DNA of 64,000 nt from Styela clava. Its lineage: Eukaryota. Shown here piece after piece: positions 3,001 to 42,000 of the stretch (positions are counted from its first letter, which is position 1; each line of letters opens with the position of its first letter). The stretch covers positions 9,858,001-9,922,000 of the forward strand of contig NC_135251.1 in assembly GCF_964204865.1 (NCBI RefSeq), written 5' to 3'. A program made the position numbers.

Positions 3001-6000
3001 CCTTTCGATTGATATTACCTGAATATCGATTGATGACAGCTAAATAATATAACTTTTCGAGCCTTTTAATAACATTAAAATTGTCTGTTGTCAAGGTTAT
3101 TGATTCTAAGAAAAAGTTTCAAACCTCTTGCCCATCACATCCTTCTAATATGTAACTTTGTTCGATTTAAAAGTTGAAAACAACCCCAAATCGATTTTAC
3201 TTGAATGGTGGTATAATTGGTGGGTTTAGATTTGTTTAGAGGTTTATTGTGTGTCAATTCATACCCTGATCTACATAAATTACTTATTTCGCTTATAATC
3301 GCACAAATTGAATAGGTAATGCACCCACAAAGAGATCTTACTTTTTAGACTATTGCGAGCACAATGCTAATCCGTGTCTAAATGGAGGAAGGTGTATATC
3401 TACTCATGGTGTTCATCCTTATTTTGAATGCGACTGTGCGGAAGGATATTTTGGTGATTTTTGCTCCGACGACCGTAAGTATTGTTCTAGTAATCTAGTT
3501 CAGTGTGTTAAGGAACTTGATTCTCATACGAATACTTGCAATAAATGTTACTGTTTTCATAAATAGAACCAATTAATAAGTGAAGAAAATTTTAGGGCAT
3601 TCACTGTTTTAAAAAAAGACATCGCCTTTATACCATGTGACAAACAAGGGCAAACAAAATACTCCTACATATCTTGCTAAATAAGTATTTCACATCAAAT
3701 TTCGGTATAAATATTTCAGAATTTGAAACACCAAAAATTATCAGTGCCTGTGGAGAGCCTTGCACAGACGATGGGAAAATTAATGTCACTTGGAAGCCGC
3801 ATACTGCAATTAAACACTTGTAAGTCGCACGAACTTGTATTTGGTTGAAACTGTCGTTGATGTCTAAAATAAACAAAACATTATATTTCTTATTCAATCC
3901 TCATACATTATATATTCAATTTTACAAAGTGGTACTGGTAAGTTTCATTCATCCAAATTCCAGAATACAACACAATTTTGTTTATACTTTCGAAACTTTA
4001 TCTTCGTTTCAACATATACAAAACCAACTGAGTTTGTATCCTTACATATTTAACTACTGCAGGATGTCTCAAAAATGAGTAAACACTTTTAATTTTGATT
4101 TGCTTTTCAGCTACTCATCATCATAGACCGTTCATTTTTTCAGAAAACATAGTATGGATAAGTAGTAAAATTTAGGTATTGTTTGCATTTTCCATGACAA
4201 AGAGGTAAACCCAAAAAATGAGGTGCAATATTGCTGTTTGGCACGAAGCATATATCCAGTAAGGCAAACTCAGCGCCTATTTGGAATTAATTCGGCTCAA
4301 AATGTTTTTCCTCAGAGCATCCGCACCTTGGTCTTCCTGATCTTTATGCATCAACTACATATCCAGTTTTCATAAATTTACGATGAATTGCATAAAATGT
4401 TCCTCGCGTAGAAGCCGAATTAATTCCAAAATCCCGTTAAAGAGGCGCTGAGTTTACCTTACTGATTTATATGCTCCTTGCCAAACAGCAAATTTTCACC
4501 GCATTTCTTGGTTAATCTTTTTCTCATTCTGGGGGTTGAGTAAAATTCCATAAATACTTAAATTTTACTACTTATCCATACTTTGTTGTCTGAAGAAATG
4601 AACCTTCTATGATGAGTACCTGAAAAGCAAATCCAAATTAAAATTGTATACTTACTTTTGAGACACCCTGTAAGTTGGACTAGTCATACAAAGATGCTTA
4701 ATTTATTACAGATATCAAATAACACTCTTGAATTCATTCGAAGAATGGCATAATTCTGGTGAAATTGCTCCAAGTGATATTCATGTGCAAAATTTGATCA
4801 TCGAAAATTTGTATCCAGATTCACAATACGATATTAAGGTATGAAATACAGTAGAATGCTAACAAAGTTCCATTGCTGATTACTTTGAATATATATCTTT
4901 TTAACTGACATAAAAAACATATACAGAAGAACAAGTATTTATTTGTTTTTTCAGATAACTGCTTGCCCGACAAACTGTATCGCAGAACTAAGCGATAACG
5001 CAACCGCCACCACAGGAATTGGTTTACCTGGAAAGATACTCACAGCAACAGTTTCACAAAATTACGAAACTAATTATTGTGAAGTTACTTGGACTTGGCC
5101 TGAAACCATATCAGAGGAAGATGTTGAAATGTTCCAGGTTAGCATTAGTTATTATTGATTTATGTTAAAGATAATTATGAATAGGATTTTACATTTTGAC
5201 GTCACTTTATCGAAAAAATGAGAAATAAATTACATACAAGAAATTTTTGTGCAAAATGTTTAAAATTTCTTATATATCAATCATATTTACATTCTATTTA
5301 TATAATTCCATATTACGTCCGATACTTGATGAAATATAAATTTTATATTTTTTTTGGTAAAGGTGTAAGGCGAACAGATATTTTCATTTATAATAGATGA
5401 ATTATCAGGCAACATTTGTACGAAAACCGCCCAGTTCTGACATCACAACAATACATGGGGAAGTTTCAGTTAATCCGCCCAAATTAACATATAATCTGAA
5501 GACGGAGCCAAACCGCATTTACAACTTTGATGTCTCAGCTGTTTCATGTGCTGGATCTGGTCCTAAAACAATCGCAACAGGCGAATGCATTACTGATAGT
5601 GAAGGTACGAATGAAGAATTTTAATTCCCGTAATAATAAGTTTTACTATCGATTATATATTTTTAAATTAGTACTCATAATTTGAACTAAATACTTGTTT
5701 CAACTAATTTCAAGTATATACTCCCTTATCGGTGAAATTGGTATTTGTCTCAGCTCCCGATTATATTGAAGAGCCAAATATAATTGATGAATCGCCAGGT
5801 TCAACTAGGGATCTGGAAATAATTTTACCAAATGAAGATAACGGGCCTATAAGGTAGGTGAATTTCAATCTGCTAGATCTTCAAAAATATATATTGGTCT
5901 ACTTTGTTTCATTAGTTATATATTAATAACAGTAAAACAGCAACAGGTAAAATTGGTATAGTGAAGACATATAAACACACGATAAAAACGATTCACAGAA

Positions 6001-39000: not shown

Positions 39001-42000
39001 TGCTGCTGTTTTCATCATTATCGATACCGATCTAATCTATTATGTTCTTACATCAAAGATCCGAGTGAGGCAACTACTTACAATGGAGATCTTCTTGAAA
39101 AATATAACAATAAAATAGGAAATGCAGCAGCAAGGAGTAGATGCTCATTGTGGAACGGCAATCTTGCTGATGCAGAATATGCGGCATATAACAAGGCTGT
39201 GCAGAATTTGATCGGGTATCTTTGTTTTATTCAGTGTGGTTCTCGGTATTATGACATTGGTTTTGCATGCTTTACTATGAGTTTTAAAGATGAATTACGA
39301 CTAATCAGGCCAATCATTAATCTATCGTAACGTTACAATCTACTATTAGGTTTATGACATGTCAAATAGGCATCTGTAGATTAGTACTATTTGTAATATT
39401 TTGCGAATTGCAAACAGATACAGACTTCATGCATGCATTTGTAAATCATTTCTCAATATTGTTATCACAGAAATGGAGACTTTTATCATATCGGATTGAA
39501 ATATTTTGATGGGGCATATCGATGGACAGATGGATCAGCAGCAACTTACTTTGATTGGTAAGATATTATTCAGCCGTTTTGGCATTTGACATCAGTAGTC
39601 GATGTTTAAAATTTACGTTCAGAACTCATTATCATACTCGGTTCAATAATCTATATTGTGTAATCCTGACATAAATCGCAATACCATAGAATAAGGACTC
39701 AAAAATATTATACTGAAGTCTAAAACTTGTAGACTTTGAATAAAATTGCACAAAATGTTCGTTTAATCGCCCTCCAATTACCACTCGTATTTGATTGAAT
39801 GTAAATGATATTTATGTGGAATTTCATTTTGAAAGTAATTACGACGTCAAAACAATACTTACATATTTTTATGATAAAAAGCAAACTAAGTATTCTGAGC
39901 TTTTTCAATCTGACAAAAATTATATTTCTTTCTAAATGACGTAAGAATTTAACTAAAAAAGAGTTGTCTGTATGAATACATAATATATATACGAAGATAA
40001 TCAAATCAATTGACGTAGTGAATATAAATAAACATGTTGAATATTAATGACAGCAATTTAAAAAATTTATGAACTATAATGAAATCAAATTTATAGGGAA
40101 ACTGGCGAAGGATCCGATATTGGCAAAGATTGTGTTAGGACCAATCAAAAATCTTGGCGTGACACAGTGTGTGGGGGCCCAATAGGATATATATGTCAAT
40201 CTACAGGTAATATGTAACAAACGGTATTTCATTTCTTTTATCATAAGTAAAAAACTGAGGTTTTTGACAAACCTAAACGGCCTGCAATAGTATCCGAATT
40301 TATATCCTTCATATGACAATTTAAAAATTTAAATCAGTATTTTTTTTCACTGTAAATATCTGATCTAAAACGACACTGAATTAAAATTCCACCATGCTTA
40401 ACAGGACAATAATAATCACGAAGCCGAAACTATTAGCCTTAGCGAGAAAATATATTTTTACTGTATCAGTTTTTTTTATCGGCATCTGCCAATAAGTAAT
40501 AAAATGTTATCGCCTCATTCTGTATTTTTGAAATTAAAAGACCCATGAAAAGTGTAAAACTTTCAAATTTTCTTTGATCGATCTGTTTAGCTTATTGCAC
40601 GGGCAAATCTGGCACTTGTCAAAATGGAGGAAGTTGTGTGTCTTTTAGATGGTGTGAATGCGCAGATGGATTCTACGGCGATACCTGCTCAAGCAATGGT
40701 GAGTTTATAGTGATGTATTGAATTGTCTACATCTTTCCAACATGGAGCAAGATACGAGCGTAAAAAATCTAAGATCGACATTGGTATTGTTATGAAACTG
40801 AAATAATAAGCACTCAAAATGAAAAATCTGTTTGCAACTAAGAGACTCAATATGACATCATAATATCATTTAAATAGTGCACGAAACATTCAATATTTCT
40901 TACATCCGAAAAATGTGTGCATGGCTAAGACGATACTACTAAACGCCTCGCCAATCCTATAGGCAGTGCAGTTAGATAACTTATCAAACACATTATAGCC
41001 AATCATTTTCTAATTGATGTTAACAGTTCAGGTTAATATTATATCACATTATTATTTTTAGAATACTGTCCGAATAATGTAAATCCGTGTCAAAATAGAG
41101 GAAGCTGCGAGAATATGCCAGGAACCGATCCATACTATAAATGTAATTGCAAGCCAGGATATTTCAACGTCACCTGTTCTAGTGATGGTGAGTAACAATT
41201 TTAAATCTATTTAAAGTTCACTTCAGATTTGGAAATTCGAAATGGGTGGACCTTCACTAAAGCATTGCATTATTGTGCTTAAGTTTTAAACTCGAGCAAT
41301 TAACATATATTAGATTCATTCGCTTGGTCTAATTTATTTTAAATTTTATTTACTTTTATGCTTTATCATCAATAATAAGTCTACGTATTTTATTGTTCGT
41401 TTGAAACTATAGTGTTGAAATCTGCATAATTGATGTCAATGACCAAGGTGACTATAACAGACTCATTTTGATGCCTTTCATTAATTTTTGCGCTAACTGT
41501 TAATCTATCGCAATGTAGGAATCTTACTATAATTCAATTAAATTTTGTACGCGATTATTACGTCATAGTATTTAGTAATAGTCAAATTAATATACGTTTC
41601 GAGTATTTATCTCCCTCCTGCATCGTATTTGGAAATGGCAAGAATGGAACTAATAAAAATTTACCTTCATATTTTAGAATACTGTCCAAACAATCCAGAC
41701 ACTTGTCAAAACGGGAGCTGTAAGAATACACAAGGGGAGGATCCGTATTATGAATGTGACTGCATGCCGGGTTTCTTCGGATATAACTGCTCTAGCGATC
41801 GTGAGTATCGTTAACTTGATTCGAGACGATTTCGCAATTCTTTTACGTTATTTTACTTAAAGTGGGGTACGCCATCATAGTGAATACAATAATCTGAAGT
41901 ATAAATTAATTGATTTACATCAGAGGTGTCATGTCGGCTACTACGACAATACATGATTTCTGCAGTCGACGGTGACAAACTATACTTTTTGAATATAAAT

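What the first reader, a model, noticed from the sequence alone, without database searches (positions are those of the whole stretch)
3700..41187. Gene 2 looks like a chimera made by unequal crossover inside the EGF arrays
The duplicated unit is not a whole gene. It runs from gene 1's FN3 exons through the intergenic region to gene 2's first EGF exons, and repeats as gene 2's FN3 exons through gene 3's first EGF exons. Gene 2 therefore shares its tail half with gene 1 (identical exon sizes, alignable introns) and its promoter and head with gene 3, whose FN3/TM half is only distantly similar with unalignable introns. The symmetric phase-1 EGF array would act as an in-frame hinge for swapping ligand-binding heads onto different signalling tails.
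Basis: partly seen in the sequence, partly recalled or inferred. Interest (0 to 1): 0.85.

Follow-up and report, generated by a model that had tools for sequence, protein, structure and literature searches.

The report
Chimeric lectin receptor from tandem duplication
In a sea-squirt (Styela clava) gene cluster, a roughly 21-kb tandem duplication that cut across two neighbouring receptor genes made a middle gene carrying the sugar-binding head of a tyrosine-phosphatase receptor on a phosphatase-less tail: a clean but textbook kind of gene birth.

Summary
The window is Styela clava, not human, and has no N. A ~21-kb unit (strong homology 3,657-21,130 vs 25,515-41,198) is repeated in tandem. Weaker colinear homology extends copy 1 to ~2,821-24,324 and copy 2 from ~24,883, so the copies nearly abut.

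- Gene 1: EGF, FN3 region, TM, short tail; its head is off-window.
- Gene 3: three CTLDs, six EGFs, Ig, FN3 region, TM and two tyrosine-phosphatase domains.
- Gene 2: gene 3's promoter, signal peptide, CTLDs and first EGFs on gene 1's tail, with no phosphatase.

All 14 EGF exons are phase 1-1. The junction lies inside gene 2's EGF array (about 24,325-24,850), beside an inverted partial EGF pseudo-exon.

Unconverted head segments differ by 19.3-19.7% and the spacer by 18.4%, which fits one old event. Two later gene-conversion tracts (3-11% differences) explain why the heads look younger. Both halves are under purifying selection (dN/dS 0.32 and 0.52).

Homologous versus replicative mechanism is unresolved, and gene 1's head was not seen. 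This is a known kind of event, of moderate interest.

The parts
2821..24324 (+). Duplicon copy 1: gene 1's last EGF intron and tail, the spacer, and gene 2's head through EGF3 and the inverted EGF
   Evidence: Strong core is 3,657-21,130. Weaker edges are 2,821-3,448 (about 58-72%) and 21,175-24,324.
24883..44155 (+). Duplicon copy 2: gene 2's last EGF intron and tail, the spacer, and gene 3's head and EGF array
   Evidence: Strong core is 25,515-41,198. The right edge is homologous to gene 2's EGF3 region (41,658-42,407 and 43,448-44,155).
24325..24850 (.). Junction interval of the tandem duplication inside gene 2's EGF array (outer bounds 24,325-25,515)
   Evidence: gene 3 is the better match in 7 of 9 windows from 23,050-24,250. 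Gene 1 is better in 7 of 11 windows from 24,850-26,350 (gene 3 in 0). There is no meaningful hit at 24,400-24,700.
24101..24324 (-). Inverted partial X2-type EGF pseudo-exon with its upstream flank; skipped in NCBI model P0001
   Evidence: 24,122-24,324 vs 42,407-42,205 at 84%, inverted; upstream flank is 69-82% to g3E4 and 61-78% to g1Ec; the 5' exon half is 83-94%; the 3' half is degenerate (56-65%); inverted tblastn hits.
583..3474 (+). Gene 1 EGF exons seen in the window: Ea 583-708 (X), Eb 908-1,033 (Y), Ec 2,520-2,645 (X2), Ed 3,349-3,474 (last). The head lies upstream of the window
   Evidence: All are phase 1-1 and 126 nt.
3720..7147 (+). Gene 1 FN3-region exons: F1a 3,720-3,819; F1b 4,712-4,838; F2a 4,955-5,137; F2b 5,397-5,604; F3a 5,754-5,853; F3b 6,073-6,213; F3c 6,753-6,896; F3d 7,034-7,134 (read-through stop at 7,146-7,148, AATAAA at 7,157)
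   Evidence: (P0002 at 83-99% per exon).
7258..7535 (+). Gene 1 TM and short cytoplasmic exon (91 codons to the stop)
   Evidence: It is 87% identical to gene 2's TM exon without gaps (bin 7,250).
7536..10749 (.). Spacer between genes 1 and 2 (partner about 28,429-32,903); the neutral baseline
   Evidence: 559 differences in 3,033 aligned sites (18.4%). K2P 0.21-0.22. No PTP or Ig remnant.
10750..11690 (+). Promoter, 5' region and signal-peptide exon block; conversion tract 1 (partner 32,904-33,824)
   Evidence: bins are 95-98%; 24 differences in 772 sites, P=4e-39 against baseline.
11544..11610 (+). Gene 2 exon 1 (start codon, signal peptide, donor in phase 1)
   Evidence: Its phase matches the C1a acceptor.
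12483..15797 (+). Gene 2 CTLD1 exons: 12,483-12,633; 13,167-13,262; 15,685-15,797
   Evidence: The split Trp codon is restored across the intron. These exons are missing from NCBI's P0001.
13375..15366 (.). DNA transposon inserted in gene 2's CTLD1 intron after the duplication: 17-nt perfect inverted ends including a TTAA target duplication
   Evidence: Gene 3 has an empty site near 35,816; no Pfam hit in its 164-aa ORF; 178-nt x2 tandem repeat at 14,862-15,209.
16216..17782 (+). Gene 2 CTLD2 exons: 16,216-16,381; 16,471-16,569; 17,673-17,782
   Evidence: dN/dS 0.24 against gene 3.
18304..19369 (+). Gene 2 CTLD3 exons: 18,304-18,460; 18,715-18,801; 19,260-19,369
   Evidence: dN/dS 0.71 against gene 3.
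13250..21130 (+). Conversion tract(s) 2: end of CTLD1 exon b to EGF2 (partner about 35,690-41,198); divergence rises left to right
   Evidence: 5.5% (124/2,266), 10.2% (162/1,581), 10.3% (68/659) and 11.1% (31/280) differences, against an 18.4% baseline. P ranges from 9e-74 to 5e-4.
19757..25507 (+). Gene 2 EGF exons: E1 19,757-19,864; E2 20,994-21,119 (X1); E3 23,291-23,413 (Y); E4 25,385-25,507 (last). Also a 102-nt non-EGF exon at 20,562-20,663 used by P0001
   Evidence: (Pfam EGF, E 1e-5 to 3e-5, 2 of 2 tested).
25579..28087 (+). Gene 2 FN3-region exons: 25,579-25,678; 25,941-26,067; 26,202-26,384; 26,642-26,849; 27,007-27,106; 27,359-27,499; 27,695-27,838; 27,973-28,073 (read-through stop at 28,085-28,087, AATAAA at 28,096)
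   Evidence: P0001 carries PF00041.
28196..28428 (+). Gene 2 TM and short cytoplasmic exon (76 codons to the stop)
   Evidence: Pfam TM_ErbB1, E=9.4e-7.
33677..40206 (+). Gene 3 signal-peptide exon 33,677-33,743 and nine CTLD exons: 34,505-34,655; 35,607-35,699; 36,429-36,541; 36,935-37,100; 37,195-37,293; 38,408-38,517; 39,059-39,215; 39,471-39,557; 40,097-40,206
40591..45095 (+). Gene 3 EGF exons: E1 40,591-40,698; E2 41,062-41,187 (X1); E3 41,678-41,800 (Y); E4 42,307-42,432 (X2); E5 43,844-43,969 (Y); E6 44,976-45,095 (last; donor may instead be at 45,086)
45378..46545 (+). Gene 3 Ig-like exons, with no counterpart in genes 1 or 2
   Evidence: I-set/Ig_3 E=3e-12 for 46,135-46,545; no hit for 45,378-45,764; no match elsewhere in the window.
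46569..49437 (+). Gene 3 FN3-region and TM exons, distantly colinear with the gene 1/2 tails
   Evidence: 34-55% aa identity; exon-level Pfam gave 0 of 2 hits.
50982..57496 (+). Gene 3 phosphatase domains: D1 (about 50,982-53,932) and D2 (about 55,465-57,496). The 3' end of the gene was not determined
   Evidence: Y_phosphatase in 6 of 6 ORFs tested (E 1e-16 to 1e-3); best solved relatives are RPTP epsilon, alpha, sigma and LAR; a WPD-type loop is seen in D1 only.

Best explanation
Proposed ancestral state: two adjacent paralogous receptor genes. Gene A had an (unseen) head, an EGF array, an FN3 region, a TM segment and a short tail. Gene B had a signal peptide, three CTLDs, an EGF array, Ig, an FN3 region, a TM segment and two phosphatase domains.

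One tandem duplication of about 21 kb had one breakpoint in A's EGF array, just after its second X-type EGF exon. The other breakpoint was in B's EGF array, at or just after the positionally equivalent exon. This copied [A tail + spacer + B promoter and head].

The result is A (gene 1), a chimera with B's head on A's tail (gene 2), and B (gene 3). Because every EGF exon is phase 1-1, the fusion stayed in frame, even after the junction EGF exon was inverted and dropped from the transcript.

Later, gene conversion between genes 2 and 3 re-homogenised the promoter and first exon (about 0.9 kb) and the stretch from the end of CTLD1 to EGF2 (about 6 kb). A TTAA-type transposon then entered gene 2's CTLD1 intron.

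Inferred function: gene 2 presents the phosphatase receptor's lectin head without catalytic output. It could be a membrane form, or by read-through of the F3d donor a secreted form, so it may act as a decoy or co-receptor.

Shown: the anatomy, divergence pattern, phases, intact reading frames and purifying selection. Inferred: the ancestral state, the order of events, homologous pairing at the X2 exons, and the decoy role.
For: Two nearly abutting direct copies cover one full period.

The switch point is inside gene 2's EGF array.

Topologies are incongruent: tail (1,2),3 and EGF array (2,3),1.

Baseline divergence is equal in the spacer (18.4%), the unconverted head (SP-C1b 19.7%, P=0.81) and the E2-E3 intron (19.3%, P=0.69). 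Tail introns give K2P 0.24-0.34, against 0.21-0.23 elsewhere.

Low-divergence patches are significant (P from 4e-39 to 5e-4).

Both breakpoints lie next to the same positional EGF class: g1Ec ends at 2,645 and A-like homology starts at 2,821; B-like homology ends at 42,407, inside g3E4.

14 of 14 EGF exons are phase 1-1.

All gene 2 splice sites that I read are canonical and all its exons are open.

dN/dS is 0.32 over 438 tail codons and 0.52 over 421 head codons.

NCBI's own model P0001 joins the gene-3-like head to the gene-1-like tail in one protein (PF00059 + PF00008 + PF00041). P0001 and P0002 sit on one 31-Mb contig.

No phosphatase or Ig remnant follows gene 1 or gene 2.
Against: Gene 1's CTLD head is outside the window, and no annotated protein for it was found. 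So whether gene 1 is the parental A type is inferred from its EGF array alone.

The 1.2 kb around the junction fits neither parent at baseline. The A-side flank is 62% identical (K2P 0.52). Gene 2's last EGF exon is 64% to gene 1's and 66% to gene 3's, while those two are 72% alike.

At exon level g1Ea is closer to g3E2 (87%) than g2E2 is (84%), so EGF exons exchange sequence among themselves and their trees are noisy.

One scan window (21,100) and two weak ones (22,600 and 22,750, 27-28 bits) favour gene 1.

An inverted fragment at the junction is more typical of a replicative or complex rearrangement than of a clean crossover.

Tail-intron K2P (0.34 for F3a-TM) is above the spacer value.

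I saw no expression data. P0001 lacks exon 1 and two CTLD1 exons, and starts inside the transposon.
Confidence: 0.7

Rival explanations
1. The chimera is real, but the event was a non-homologous or replicative tandem duplication (template switching or end joining), not homologous unequal crossover between EGF exons. On this view the breakpoints fall in the EGF arrays by chance, or because long introns are large targets.
For: An inverted partial EGF exon lies exactly at the junction. About 0.5 kb (24,400-24,850) matches neither parent. The junction flanks are more diverged than baseline.
Against: Both breakpoints map next to the same positional exon class (X2), which shares flanks between genes 1 and 3. 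EGF copy number differs among the three genes (at least 4, 4 plus a pseudo-exon, and 6), so the arrays do recombine. The inversion could have come later.
Confidence: 0.25
2. There was no chimeric duplication. Gene 2 began as a whole-gene tandem copy of gene 1 (with its spacer), and its head was later overwritten by gene conversion from gene 3.
For: Gene conversion between genes 2 and 3 clearly occurs. Gene 1's head is unseen, so an A-type head resembling gene 2's cannot be excluded.
Against: The head segments outside the conversion tracts (SP-C1b 19.7%, E2-E3 intron 19.3%) have the same divergence from gene 3 as the spacer copies have from each other (18.4%). The rival would need an overwrite at about the same time as the duplication. 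Colinearity runs unbroken from tail through spacer into head. Gene 1's visible EGF-array introns are only 66-70% like gene 2's, against 84% for gene 3.
Confidence: 0.1
3. It is an assembly artefact: uncollapsed haplotypes or a mis-join create the apparent repeat.
For: No reads were available to me. The window differs slightly from the NCBI protein models (per-exon identity mostly 97.6-100%, lower where HSPs run into introns), so at least two sequence versions exist.
Against: The copies differ by 18-20% at baseline, plus many indels of 0.2-2 kb, a transposon present in one copy only, and different flanking genes. That is far beyond allelic variation. NCBI's models P0001 and P0002 reproduce the gene 2 chimera and the gene 1 tail on one 31-Mb contig.
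Confidence: 0.03

Closest known systems
[quoted passage not shown]
   Same: A tandem duplication unites the 5' end of the downstream gene with the 3' end of the upstream gene and leaves both parents in place. That paper reports 76 chimeric genes among 1,116 tandem duplications and calls the process exon shuffling.
   Different: Here the event is old (about 18-20% neutral differences), fixed at least in the assemblies seen, and under purifying selection. The parents are themselves distant paralogues sharing a modular EGF array, and part of the chimera was later re-homogenised with one parent.
Hybrid genes from unequal crossover between tandem paralogues (haemoglobin Lepore/anti-Lepore, red-green opsin hybrids; recalled, not from a call)
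   Same: Misaligned pairing of similar tandem genes gives an extra fusion gene, the anti-Lepore type outcome.
   Different: Pairing here would have been between repeated EGF exons of two otherwise very different genes. So the fusion swaps whole domain sets (lectin head against phosphatase tail) rather than near-identical halves.
Modular exon shuffling of phase 1-1 extracellular modules (Patthy's rule; recalled, not from a call)
   Same: 14 of 14 EGF exons are symmetric phase 1-1. Gain, loss or inversion of one exon keeps the frame.
   Different: This is a concrete, datable case in which the array is the recombination site between two genes, not only a source of domain copy-number change.
Classical receptor-type tyrosine phosphatases with tandem D1-D2 domains (RPTP epsilon/alpha, sigma, LAR)
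   Same: Gene 3 has two Y_phosphatase domains. The catalytic-loop exon of D1 best matches RPTP epsilon (E=3e-17), alpha, sigma and LAR. Ig and an FN3 region precede the TM segment.
   Different: The three CTLDs and six EGFs at the N-terminus have no counterpart in the solved vertebrate relatives listed. Three literature searches found no description of such an ascidian receptor.
Decoy or paired receptors: a signalling receptor with a truncated partner sharing its ligand-binding domain (recalled concept)
   Same: Genes 2 and 3 share a lectin head at 89-97% DNA identity in the converted part. Only gene 3 has catalytic domains.
   Different: No binding, expression or signalling data exist here, so the decoy role is inference only.

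Membership tests
Chimeric gene from a boundary-crossing tandem duplication | Two adjacent direct copies of one segment whose ends lie inside two different genes | tested here: met
   copy 1 is about 2,821-24,324 and copy 2 runs from about 24,883. The ends lie in the EGF arrays of genes 1 and 3.
Chimeric gene from a boundary-crossing tandem duplication | The middle gene's 5' part matches the downstream gene and its 3' part matches the upstream gene | tested here: met
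Chimeric gene from a boundary-crossing tandem duplication | Both halves of the duplicon have the same age (equal neutral divergence) | tested here: met
   18.4% (spacer), 19.7% (SP-C1b), 19.3% (E2-E3 intron). Exceptions are the conversion tracts (lower) and the junction flank (higher).
Chimeric gene from a boundary-crossing tandem duplication | Both parental genes remain complete on either side | tested here: inconclusive
   In gene 3, the head exons are open with canonical splice sites and the phosphatase domains are present. Gene 1's head is outside the window, and no protein model was found for it.
Chimeric gene from a boundary-crossing tandem duplication | The chimera is transcribed as one unit | not testable with these tools
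   NCBI model P0001 joins head and tail. I could not see the evidence behind that model.
Homologous unequal crossover (NAHR) as the mechanism | Breakpoints lie at equivalent positions of homologous repeats, with a hybrid repeat at the junction | tested here: inconclusive
   Both breakpoints are adjacent to the X2-class EGF exon. The junction exon is inverted and its 3' half is degenerate, so a hybrid cannot be read.
Interlocus gene conversion | Sharply bounded low-divergence patches inside older duplicates, covering introns as well as exons | tested here: met
   non-coding K2P is 0.03-0.12 inside the patches and 0.21-0.24 outside.
Interlocus gene conversion | Donor and acceptor identified with an outgroup copy | not testable with these tools
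Receptor-type protein tyrosine phosphatase (gene 3) | Tyrosine phosphatase catalytic domain(s) | tested here: met
   PF00102 in 6 of 6 ORFs, covering two domains..
Receptor-type protein tyrosine phosphatase (gene 3) | Catalytic Cys-X5-Arg loop and a WPD-type loop (motif names recalled) | tested here: met
   For D1, the loop is split over two exons (ORFs 52,414-52,569 and 52,876-53,103) and WPD is at 52,450. D2 has the Cys loop but no WPD.
Receptor-type protein tyrosine phosphatase (genes 1 and 2) | Tyrosine phosphatase catalytic domain | tested here: not met
   no match to any gene 3 phosphatase ORF in 1-45,200. The name NCBI gives P0002 ('receptor-type tyrosine-protein phosphatase-like') reflects the FN3 region only.
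C-type lectin-like domain (heads of genes 2 and 3) | Match to the Lectin_C profile | tested here: inconclusive
   At exon level, 0 of 8 CTLD exon ORFs reach E<=0.01. Single-exon PDB hits are all CTLD proteins but weak (E 0.08-0.5). A HMMER hit to a multi-CTLD protein, P0004, has E=4e-4. NCBI's P0001 carries precomputed PF00059. I did not score joined exons.
EGF-like module, phase 1-1 | EGF profile match, and introns in phase 1 on both sides | tested here: met
   PF00008 in 2 of 2 EGF ORFs tested; 14 of 14 exons are phase 1-1.
TTAA-targeting cut-and-paste DNA transposon (piggyBac-like; the target preference is recalled) | Terminal inverted repeats, TTAA target duplication and a transposase | tested here: inconclusive
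   The inverted repeats and the TTAA duplication, with an empty paralogous site, are met. No transposase domain was found, so at most it is a non-autonomous copy.

The most novel reading that the evidence does not exclude
Genes 2 and 3 may form a paired-receptor couple. A catalytic lectin-headed phosphatase receptor and a phosphatase-less partner would have a shared promoter and sugar-binding head kept in step by recurrent gene conversion. The partner could switch between a secreted and a membrane form at the F3d donor/poly(A) site. That would be a tunicate way of tuning or decoying glycan recognition, for example in innate immunity or self/non-self contact. The phase 1-1 EGF array would be the hinge that lets such couples arise repeatedly.
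Probability: 0.15. Interest if true: 0.6.

Novelty: new member of a known kind. Interest (0 to 1): 0.4.

Why it matters
This is an unusually legible natural example of domain-level gene birth. The parents, the chimera, the junction interval, the in-frame hinge (phase 1-1 EGF exons) and the later history (conversion tracts, a dated transposon insertion) can all be read from one 64-kb window.

It also corrects public annotation:
- NCBI's gene 2 model lacks its signal-peptide exon and two CTLD1 exons, and starts inside a transposon.
- Gene 1 is annotated only as a 235-aa tail fragment named as phosphatase-like, though it has no phosphatase domain.
- No protein model containing gene 3's head exon turned up in my searches.

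Biologically it points to a lectin-headed receptor phosphatase type that I did not find described for ascidians, with a catalytically silent partner. The mechanism itself is well known, so the value is as a worked case and an annotation fix, not as a new principle.

Tried and rejected
Exon-level Pfam for the CTLD and FN3 pieces gave nothing (0 of 8 and 0 of 2), because each domain is split over two or three exons. I relied on NCBI's own model and on weak single-exon hits instead.

A search for an annotated gene 1 head found nothing. The last EGF exon of gene 1 had no candidate. The CTLD2 exon returned only P0001 in the word-indexed set (1 of 8 candidates). In the exhaustive set it returned P0001 plus two remote hits. 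One of those, P0003, is a low-complexity repeat protein and was set aside. The other, P0004, is a generic multi-CTLD protein.

Positive selection on CTLD3 was considered, because coding K2P (0.173) exceeded intron K2P (0.093). It was rejected: dN/dS is 0.71, with 8 synonymous and 21 non-synonymous differences, so it is not above 1.

I first mis-read a stop at the CTLD1 b/c junction and a mutated CTLD2 donor in gene 2. Both were off-by-one errors of mine. The DNA shows canonical sites.

The flank identity matrices (150-nt flanks with free end gaps) gave meaningless 100% values from very short alignments and were not used. BLAST HSPs and a MAFFT block replaced them.

Rfam found nothing in the window, including the 97% promoter block. 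The idea that this block is an independently inserted repeat was rejected: it is gap-free and colinear with its flanks and has no other copy in the window.

Retroelement: only one ORF gave a domain (zf-RVT), and 0 of 10 neighbouring ORFs did. I did not align it to relatives, count its breaks or reconstruct anything.

Literature: (search listings and abstract starts only) gave no paper on this locus or on CTLD-headed ascidian receptor phosphatases. One search gave listings, and I read passages of PMC5460883. Supplements were not requested.

Not done:
- No structure prediction, fold search or protein-atlas call.

Full report
ORIGIN AND GROUND RULES. The window has 64,000 bases, no N and about 32% G+C. 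A single FN3-region exon of gene 2 retrieved two NCBI proteins of the ascidian Styela clava. P0001 is 'uncharacterized protein LOC144419974', 779 aa, with precomputed Pfam PF00059 Lectin_C, PF00008 EGF and PF00041 fn3. P0002 is 'receptor-type tyrosine-protein phosphatase-like', 235 aa. Both lie on one 31.3-Mb contig. Mapped back onto the window, P0001 is gene 2 (most exons 97.6-100% identical) and P0002 is gene 1's tail. I did not take the window for human. The step of joining exons into a spliced protein and searching with it was left out. As a result, domains split over several exons (CTLD, FN3) could not be scored as wholes here.

Self-BLAST shows a colinear direct repeat from 3,710 to 21,130 against 25,569 to 41,198. 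A global alignment and a 14-HSP chain confirm it. More sensitive BLAST extends it in two directions. On the left, 2,821-2,969 matches 24,883-25,025 (72%) and 3,338-3,448 matches 25,374-25,484 (69%). On the right, gene 2's 23,270-23,814 matches gene 3's 41,658-42,222 (84%), followed by an inverted piece, 24,122-24,324 against 42,407-42,205 (84%). Copy 1 (about 2,821-24,324) and copy 2 (from about 24,883) therefore nearly abut, which is the geometry of a simple tandem duplication with a period of about 21-22 kb.

GENE MODELS.
- Gene 1, as far as the window shows: four EGF exons (types X, Y, X2, last), eight FN3-region exons, and a TM exon.
- Gene 2: a signal-peptide exon (ATG at 11,544), three CTLDs of three exons each (phases 1>2, 2>2, 2>1), EGF1, EGF2 (X1), EGF3 (Y), an inverted partial X2 pseudo-exon, EGF4 (last), the same eight FN3-region exons, and a TM exon.
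- Gene 3: the same head, six EGF exons (first, X1, Y, X2, Y, last), an I-set Ig exon (E=3e-12), a second Ig-like ORF with no Pfam hit, an FN3 region, a TM segment, and two phosphatase domains. PF00102 is found in 6 of 6 ORFs. The best solved relatives of the D1 catalytic-loop exon are RPTP epsilon, alpha, sigma and LAR.

Exon lengths are identical in 8 of 8 tail exons (genes 1 and 2) and in 11 of 12 head exons (genes 2 and 3). All 14 EGF exons are phase 1-1. Every splice site I read in these models is AG/GT, and every exon is open. No phosphatase or Ig remnant follows gene 1 or gene 2. Gene 3's tail resembles theirs only at 34-55% protein identity.

WHERE THE SWITCH IS. I ran a scan of 38 windows of 150 nt across 20,800-26,350.
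- Gene 3 is the better match in 7 of the 9 windows from 23,050-24,250 (82-94% identity). One window has no hit. One (23,950) has a 54-bit inverted hit to gene 1.
- Windows 24,400-24,700 have no meaningful hit.
- From 24,850 on, gene 1 is better in 7 of 11 windows, gene 3 in none, with one tie and three without hits.
- Against the trend, window 21,100 favours gene 1 (77 vs 57 bits; this flank is shared by all X-type exons), and two 27-28-bit hits at 22,600 and 22,750 are probably noise.

The junction is thus inside gene 2's EGF array, about 24,325-24,850 (outer bound 25,515).

On the gene 1 side, homology starts 176 nt after exon Ec. On the gene 3 side, it ends inside exon E4. Ec, E4 and the inverted pseudo-exon share their upstream flank (61-82%), unlike the other X exons (28-53%). 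They are therefore positional equivalents. That is what homologous mispairing of the two arrays predicts. But the junction exon is inverted and its 3' half is degenerate, so a hybrid cannot be read, and a replicative rearrangement remains possible.

ONE OLD EVENT, THEN CONVERSION. Differences per aligned site:
- Spacer: 18.4% (559/3,033).
- Unconverted head (signal-peptide exon to CTLD1 exon b): 19.7% (115/583; P=0.81 against the spacer rate).
- EGF2-EGF3 intron: 19.3% (75/389; P=0.69).

Non-coding K2P is 0.21-0.24 in these regions and 0.24-0.34 in tail introns. The head-to-gene-3 and tail-to-gene-1 relationships are therefore the same age, as one duplication predicts. This counts against the rival in which gene 2 is a whole-gene copy of gene 1 whose head was overwritten later.

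Two low-divergence stretches are embedded in this baseline. The first runs from about 800 nt upstream of the start codon to just past exon 1: 3.1% differences (24/772, P=4e-39). The second runs from the end of CTLD1 exon b to EGF2: 5.5%, 10.2%, 10.3% and 11.1% from left to right (P from 9e-74 to 5e-4). They cover introns as much as exons, so they are gene-conversion tracts and not selective constraint. The left end of the second tract lies within about 150 nt of a 2-kb insertion present only in gene 2. Such a heterology could have stopped the tract; that is inference.

SELECTION. Counts were summed exon by exon, with nothing joined.
- Tail, gene 1 vs gene 2: dS 0.305, dN 0.097, ratio 0.32 over 438 codons. 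This includes the TM/cytoplasmic exon (pN 0.087, pS 0.216).
- Head, gene 2 vs gene 3: ratio 0.52 over 421 codons (CTLD2 0.24, CTLD3 0.71).

Both halves of the chimera are constrained. Nothing exceeds 1.

WHAT DOES NOT FIT. The roughly 1.2 kb around the junction is more diverged than baseline. The gene-1-side flank is 62% identical (K2P 0.52). Gene 2's last EGF exon is the outlier of the three 'last' exons: 64% and 66% to the others, against 72% between genes 1 and 3. EGF exon trees are noisy; for example g1Ea-g3E2 is 87% while g2E2-g3E2 is 84%. This shows exchange among EGF exons. Gene 1's CTLD head lies outside the window, and three protein searches found no model for it.

LIKELY WORKING. Gene 2 carries gene 3's promoter block and lectin head but no catalytic domain. 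In genes 1 and 2, exon F3d has a conserved phase-1 donor 11 nt before an in-frame stop, and that stop is followed within 12 nt by AATAAA. Using the donor joins the phase-1 TM exon in frame (Pfam TM_ErbB1, E=9e-7). Reading through instead ends the protein exactly where NCBI's P0002 ends. I infer secreted and membrane forms, and a decoy or co-receptor role beside the phosphatase receptor. No expression or binding data were available.

COMPARISON AND NOVELTY. Tandem duplications that cross gene boundaries and fuse the downstream gene's 5' end to the upstream gene's 3' end are documented. A Drosophila yakuba survey reports 76 chimeras among 1,116 duplications (PMC5460883, passages read). Lepore-type hybrids and phase 1-1 module shuffling are textbook (recalled). 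This is therefore a new member of a known kind. What is less ordinary is the lectin-headed receptor phosphatase architecture, which I did not find described in three literature searches (listings only), and the conversion-maintained pairing with a phosphatase-less partner.

OTHER ELEMENTS, DESCRIBED ONLY. A TTAA-flanked element with 17-nt perfect inverted ends (13,375-15,366) sits in gene 2's CTLD1 intron, and gene 3 has an empty paralogous site. Downstream of gene 3, one 171-codon open stretch carries the zinc-binding C-terminal part of a reverse transcriptase (PF13966, E=7e-14). None of 10 neighbouring ORFs has a Pfam hit. I made no alignment to relatives, did not count breaks, and rebuilt nothing. 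Rfam found no RNA family in the window.

VERDICT. Confidence in the chimera-by-tandem-duplication model is 0.7. The homologous-versus-replicative sub-question is open. Interest is 0.4.

Noticed in passing
window 13375-15366: A roughly 2.0-kb element with perfect 17-nt inverted ends and a TTAA target duplication sits in gene 2's CTLD1 intron. The paralogous site in gene 3 (about 35,816) is empty. No transposase domain was found. It holds a 178-nt x2 tandem repeat (14,862-15,209). NCBI model P0001 starts with an exon inside it (15,198-15,272).
   Followed up: yes
window 61592-62104 (+), surroundings 59,000-63,500: This is a retroelement remnant. One open stretch carries the zinc-binding C-terminal region of a reverse transcriptase (PF13966). 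No other domain was found in 10 neighbouring ORFs. Local repeats lie at 59,364-59,959 and 63,237-63,536. It was described only.
   Followed up: partly
window 7134-7162 and 28073-28101: In genes 1 and 2, a conserved phase-1 donor lies 11 nt before an in-frame stop that is followed by AATAAA. This suggests alternative secreted (read-through, as in NCBI's P0002) and membrane-anchored (spliced to the TM exon) forms.
   Followed up: partly
window 20197-20845 (exon 20562-20663): A 649-bp stretch present in gene 2 but absent from gene 3 supplies a 102-nt phase 1-1 non-EGF exon, which NCBI's P0001 places between EGF1 and EGF2. It could be an exonised insertion, or a deletion in gene 3.
   Followed up: partly
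window 21402-23115: About 1.7 kb in gene 2's EGF2-EGF3 intron has no counterpart in gene 3's homologous intron. It contains a 55-nt inverted repeat (22,248-22,302 / 23,027-23,078) and an ORF without a Pfam hit. It may be another insertion.
   Followed up: no
window 42453-43226: Gene 3's intron after EGF4 holds a local repeat (42,453-42,686 vs 42,822-43,037 at 80%) and an 8-nt microsatellite (42,497-42,546). This interrupts the flank that would be compared with the junction in gene 2.
   Followed up: no
window 29790-30612, 31339-31711, 34760-35270, 35866-36238: These are four copy-2-specific stretches of 0.2-0.8 kb in the spacer and in gene 3's CTLD1 introns. They are insertions there, or deletions in copy 1.
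   Followed up: no
window 11544-13262 vs NCBI model P0001: The public model of gene 2 lacks the signal-peptide exon and CTLD1 exons a and b. Gene 1 is annotated only as a 235-aa tail fragment. No protein model containing gene 3's head exon was found in the protein sets searched.
   Followed up: partly
window 56307-57496: Phosphatase domain D2 of gene 3 keeps the Cys-loop exon but lacks a WPD-type loop. A related but different sequence is in its place. This fits the usual inactive or regulatory second domain of receptor phosphatases (recalled).
   Followed up: no
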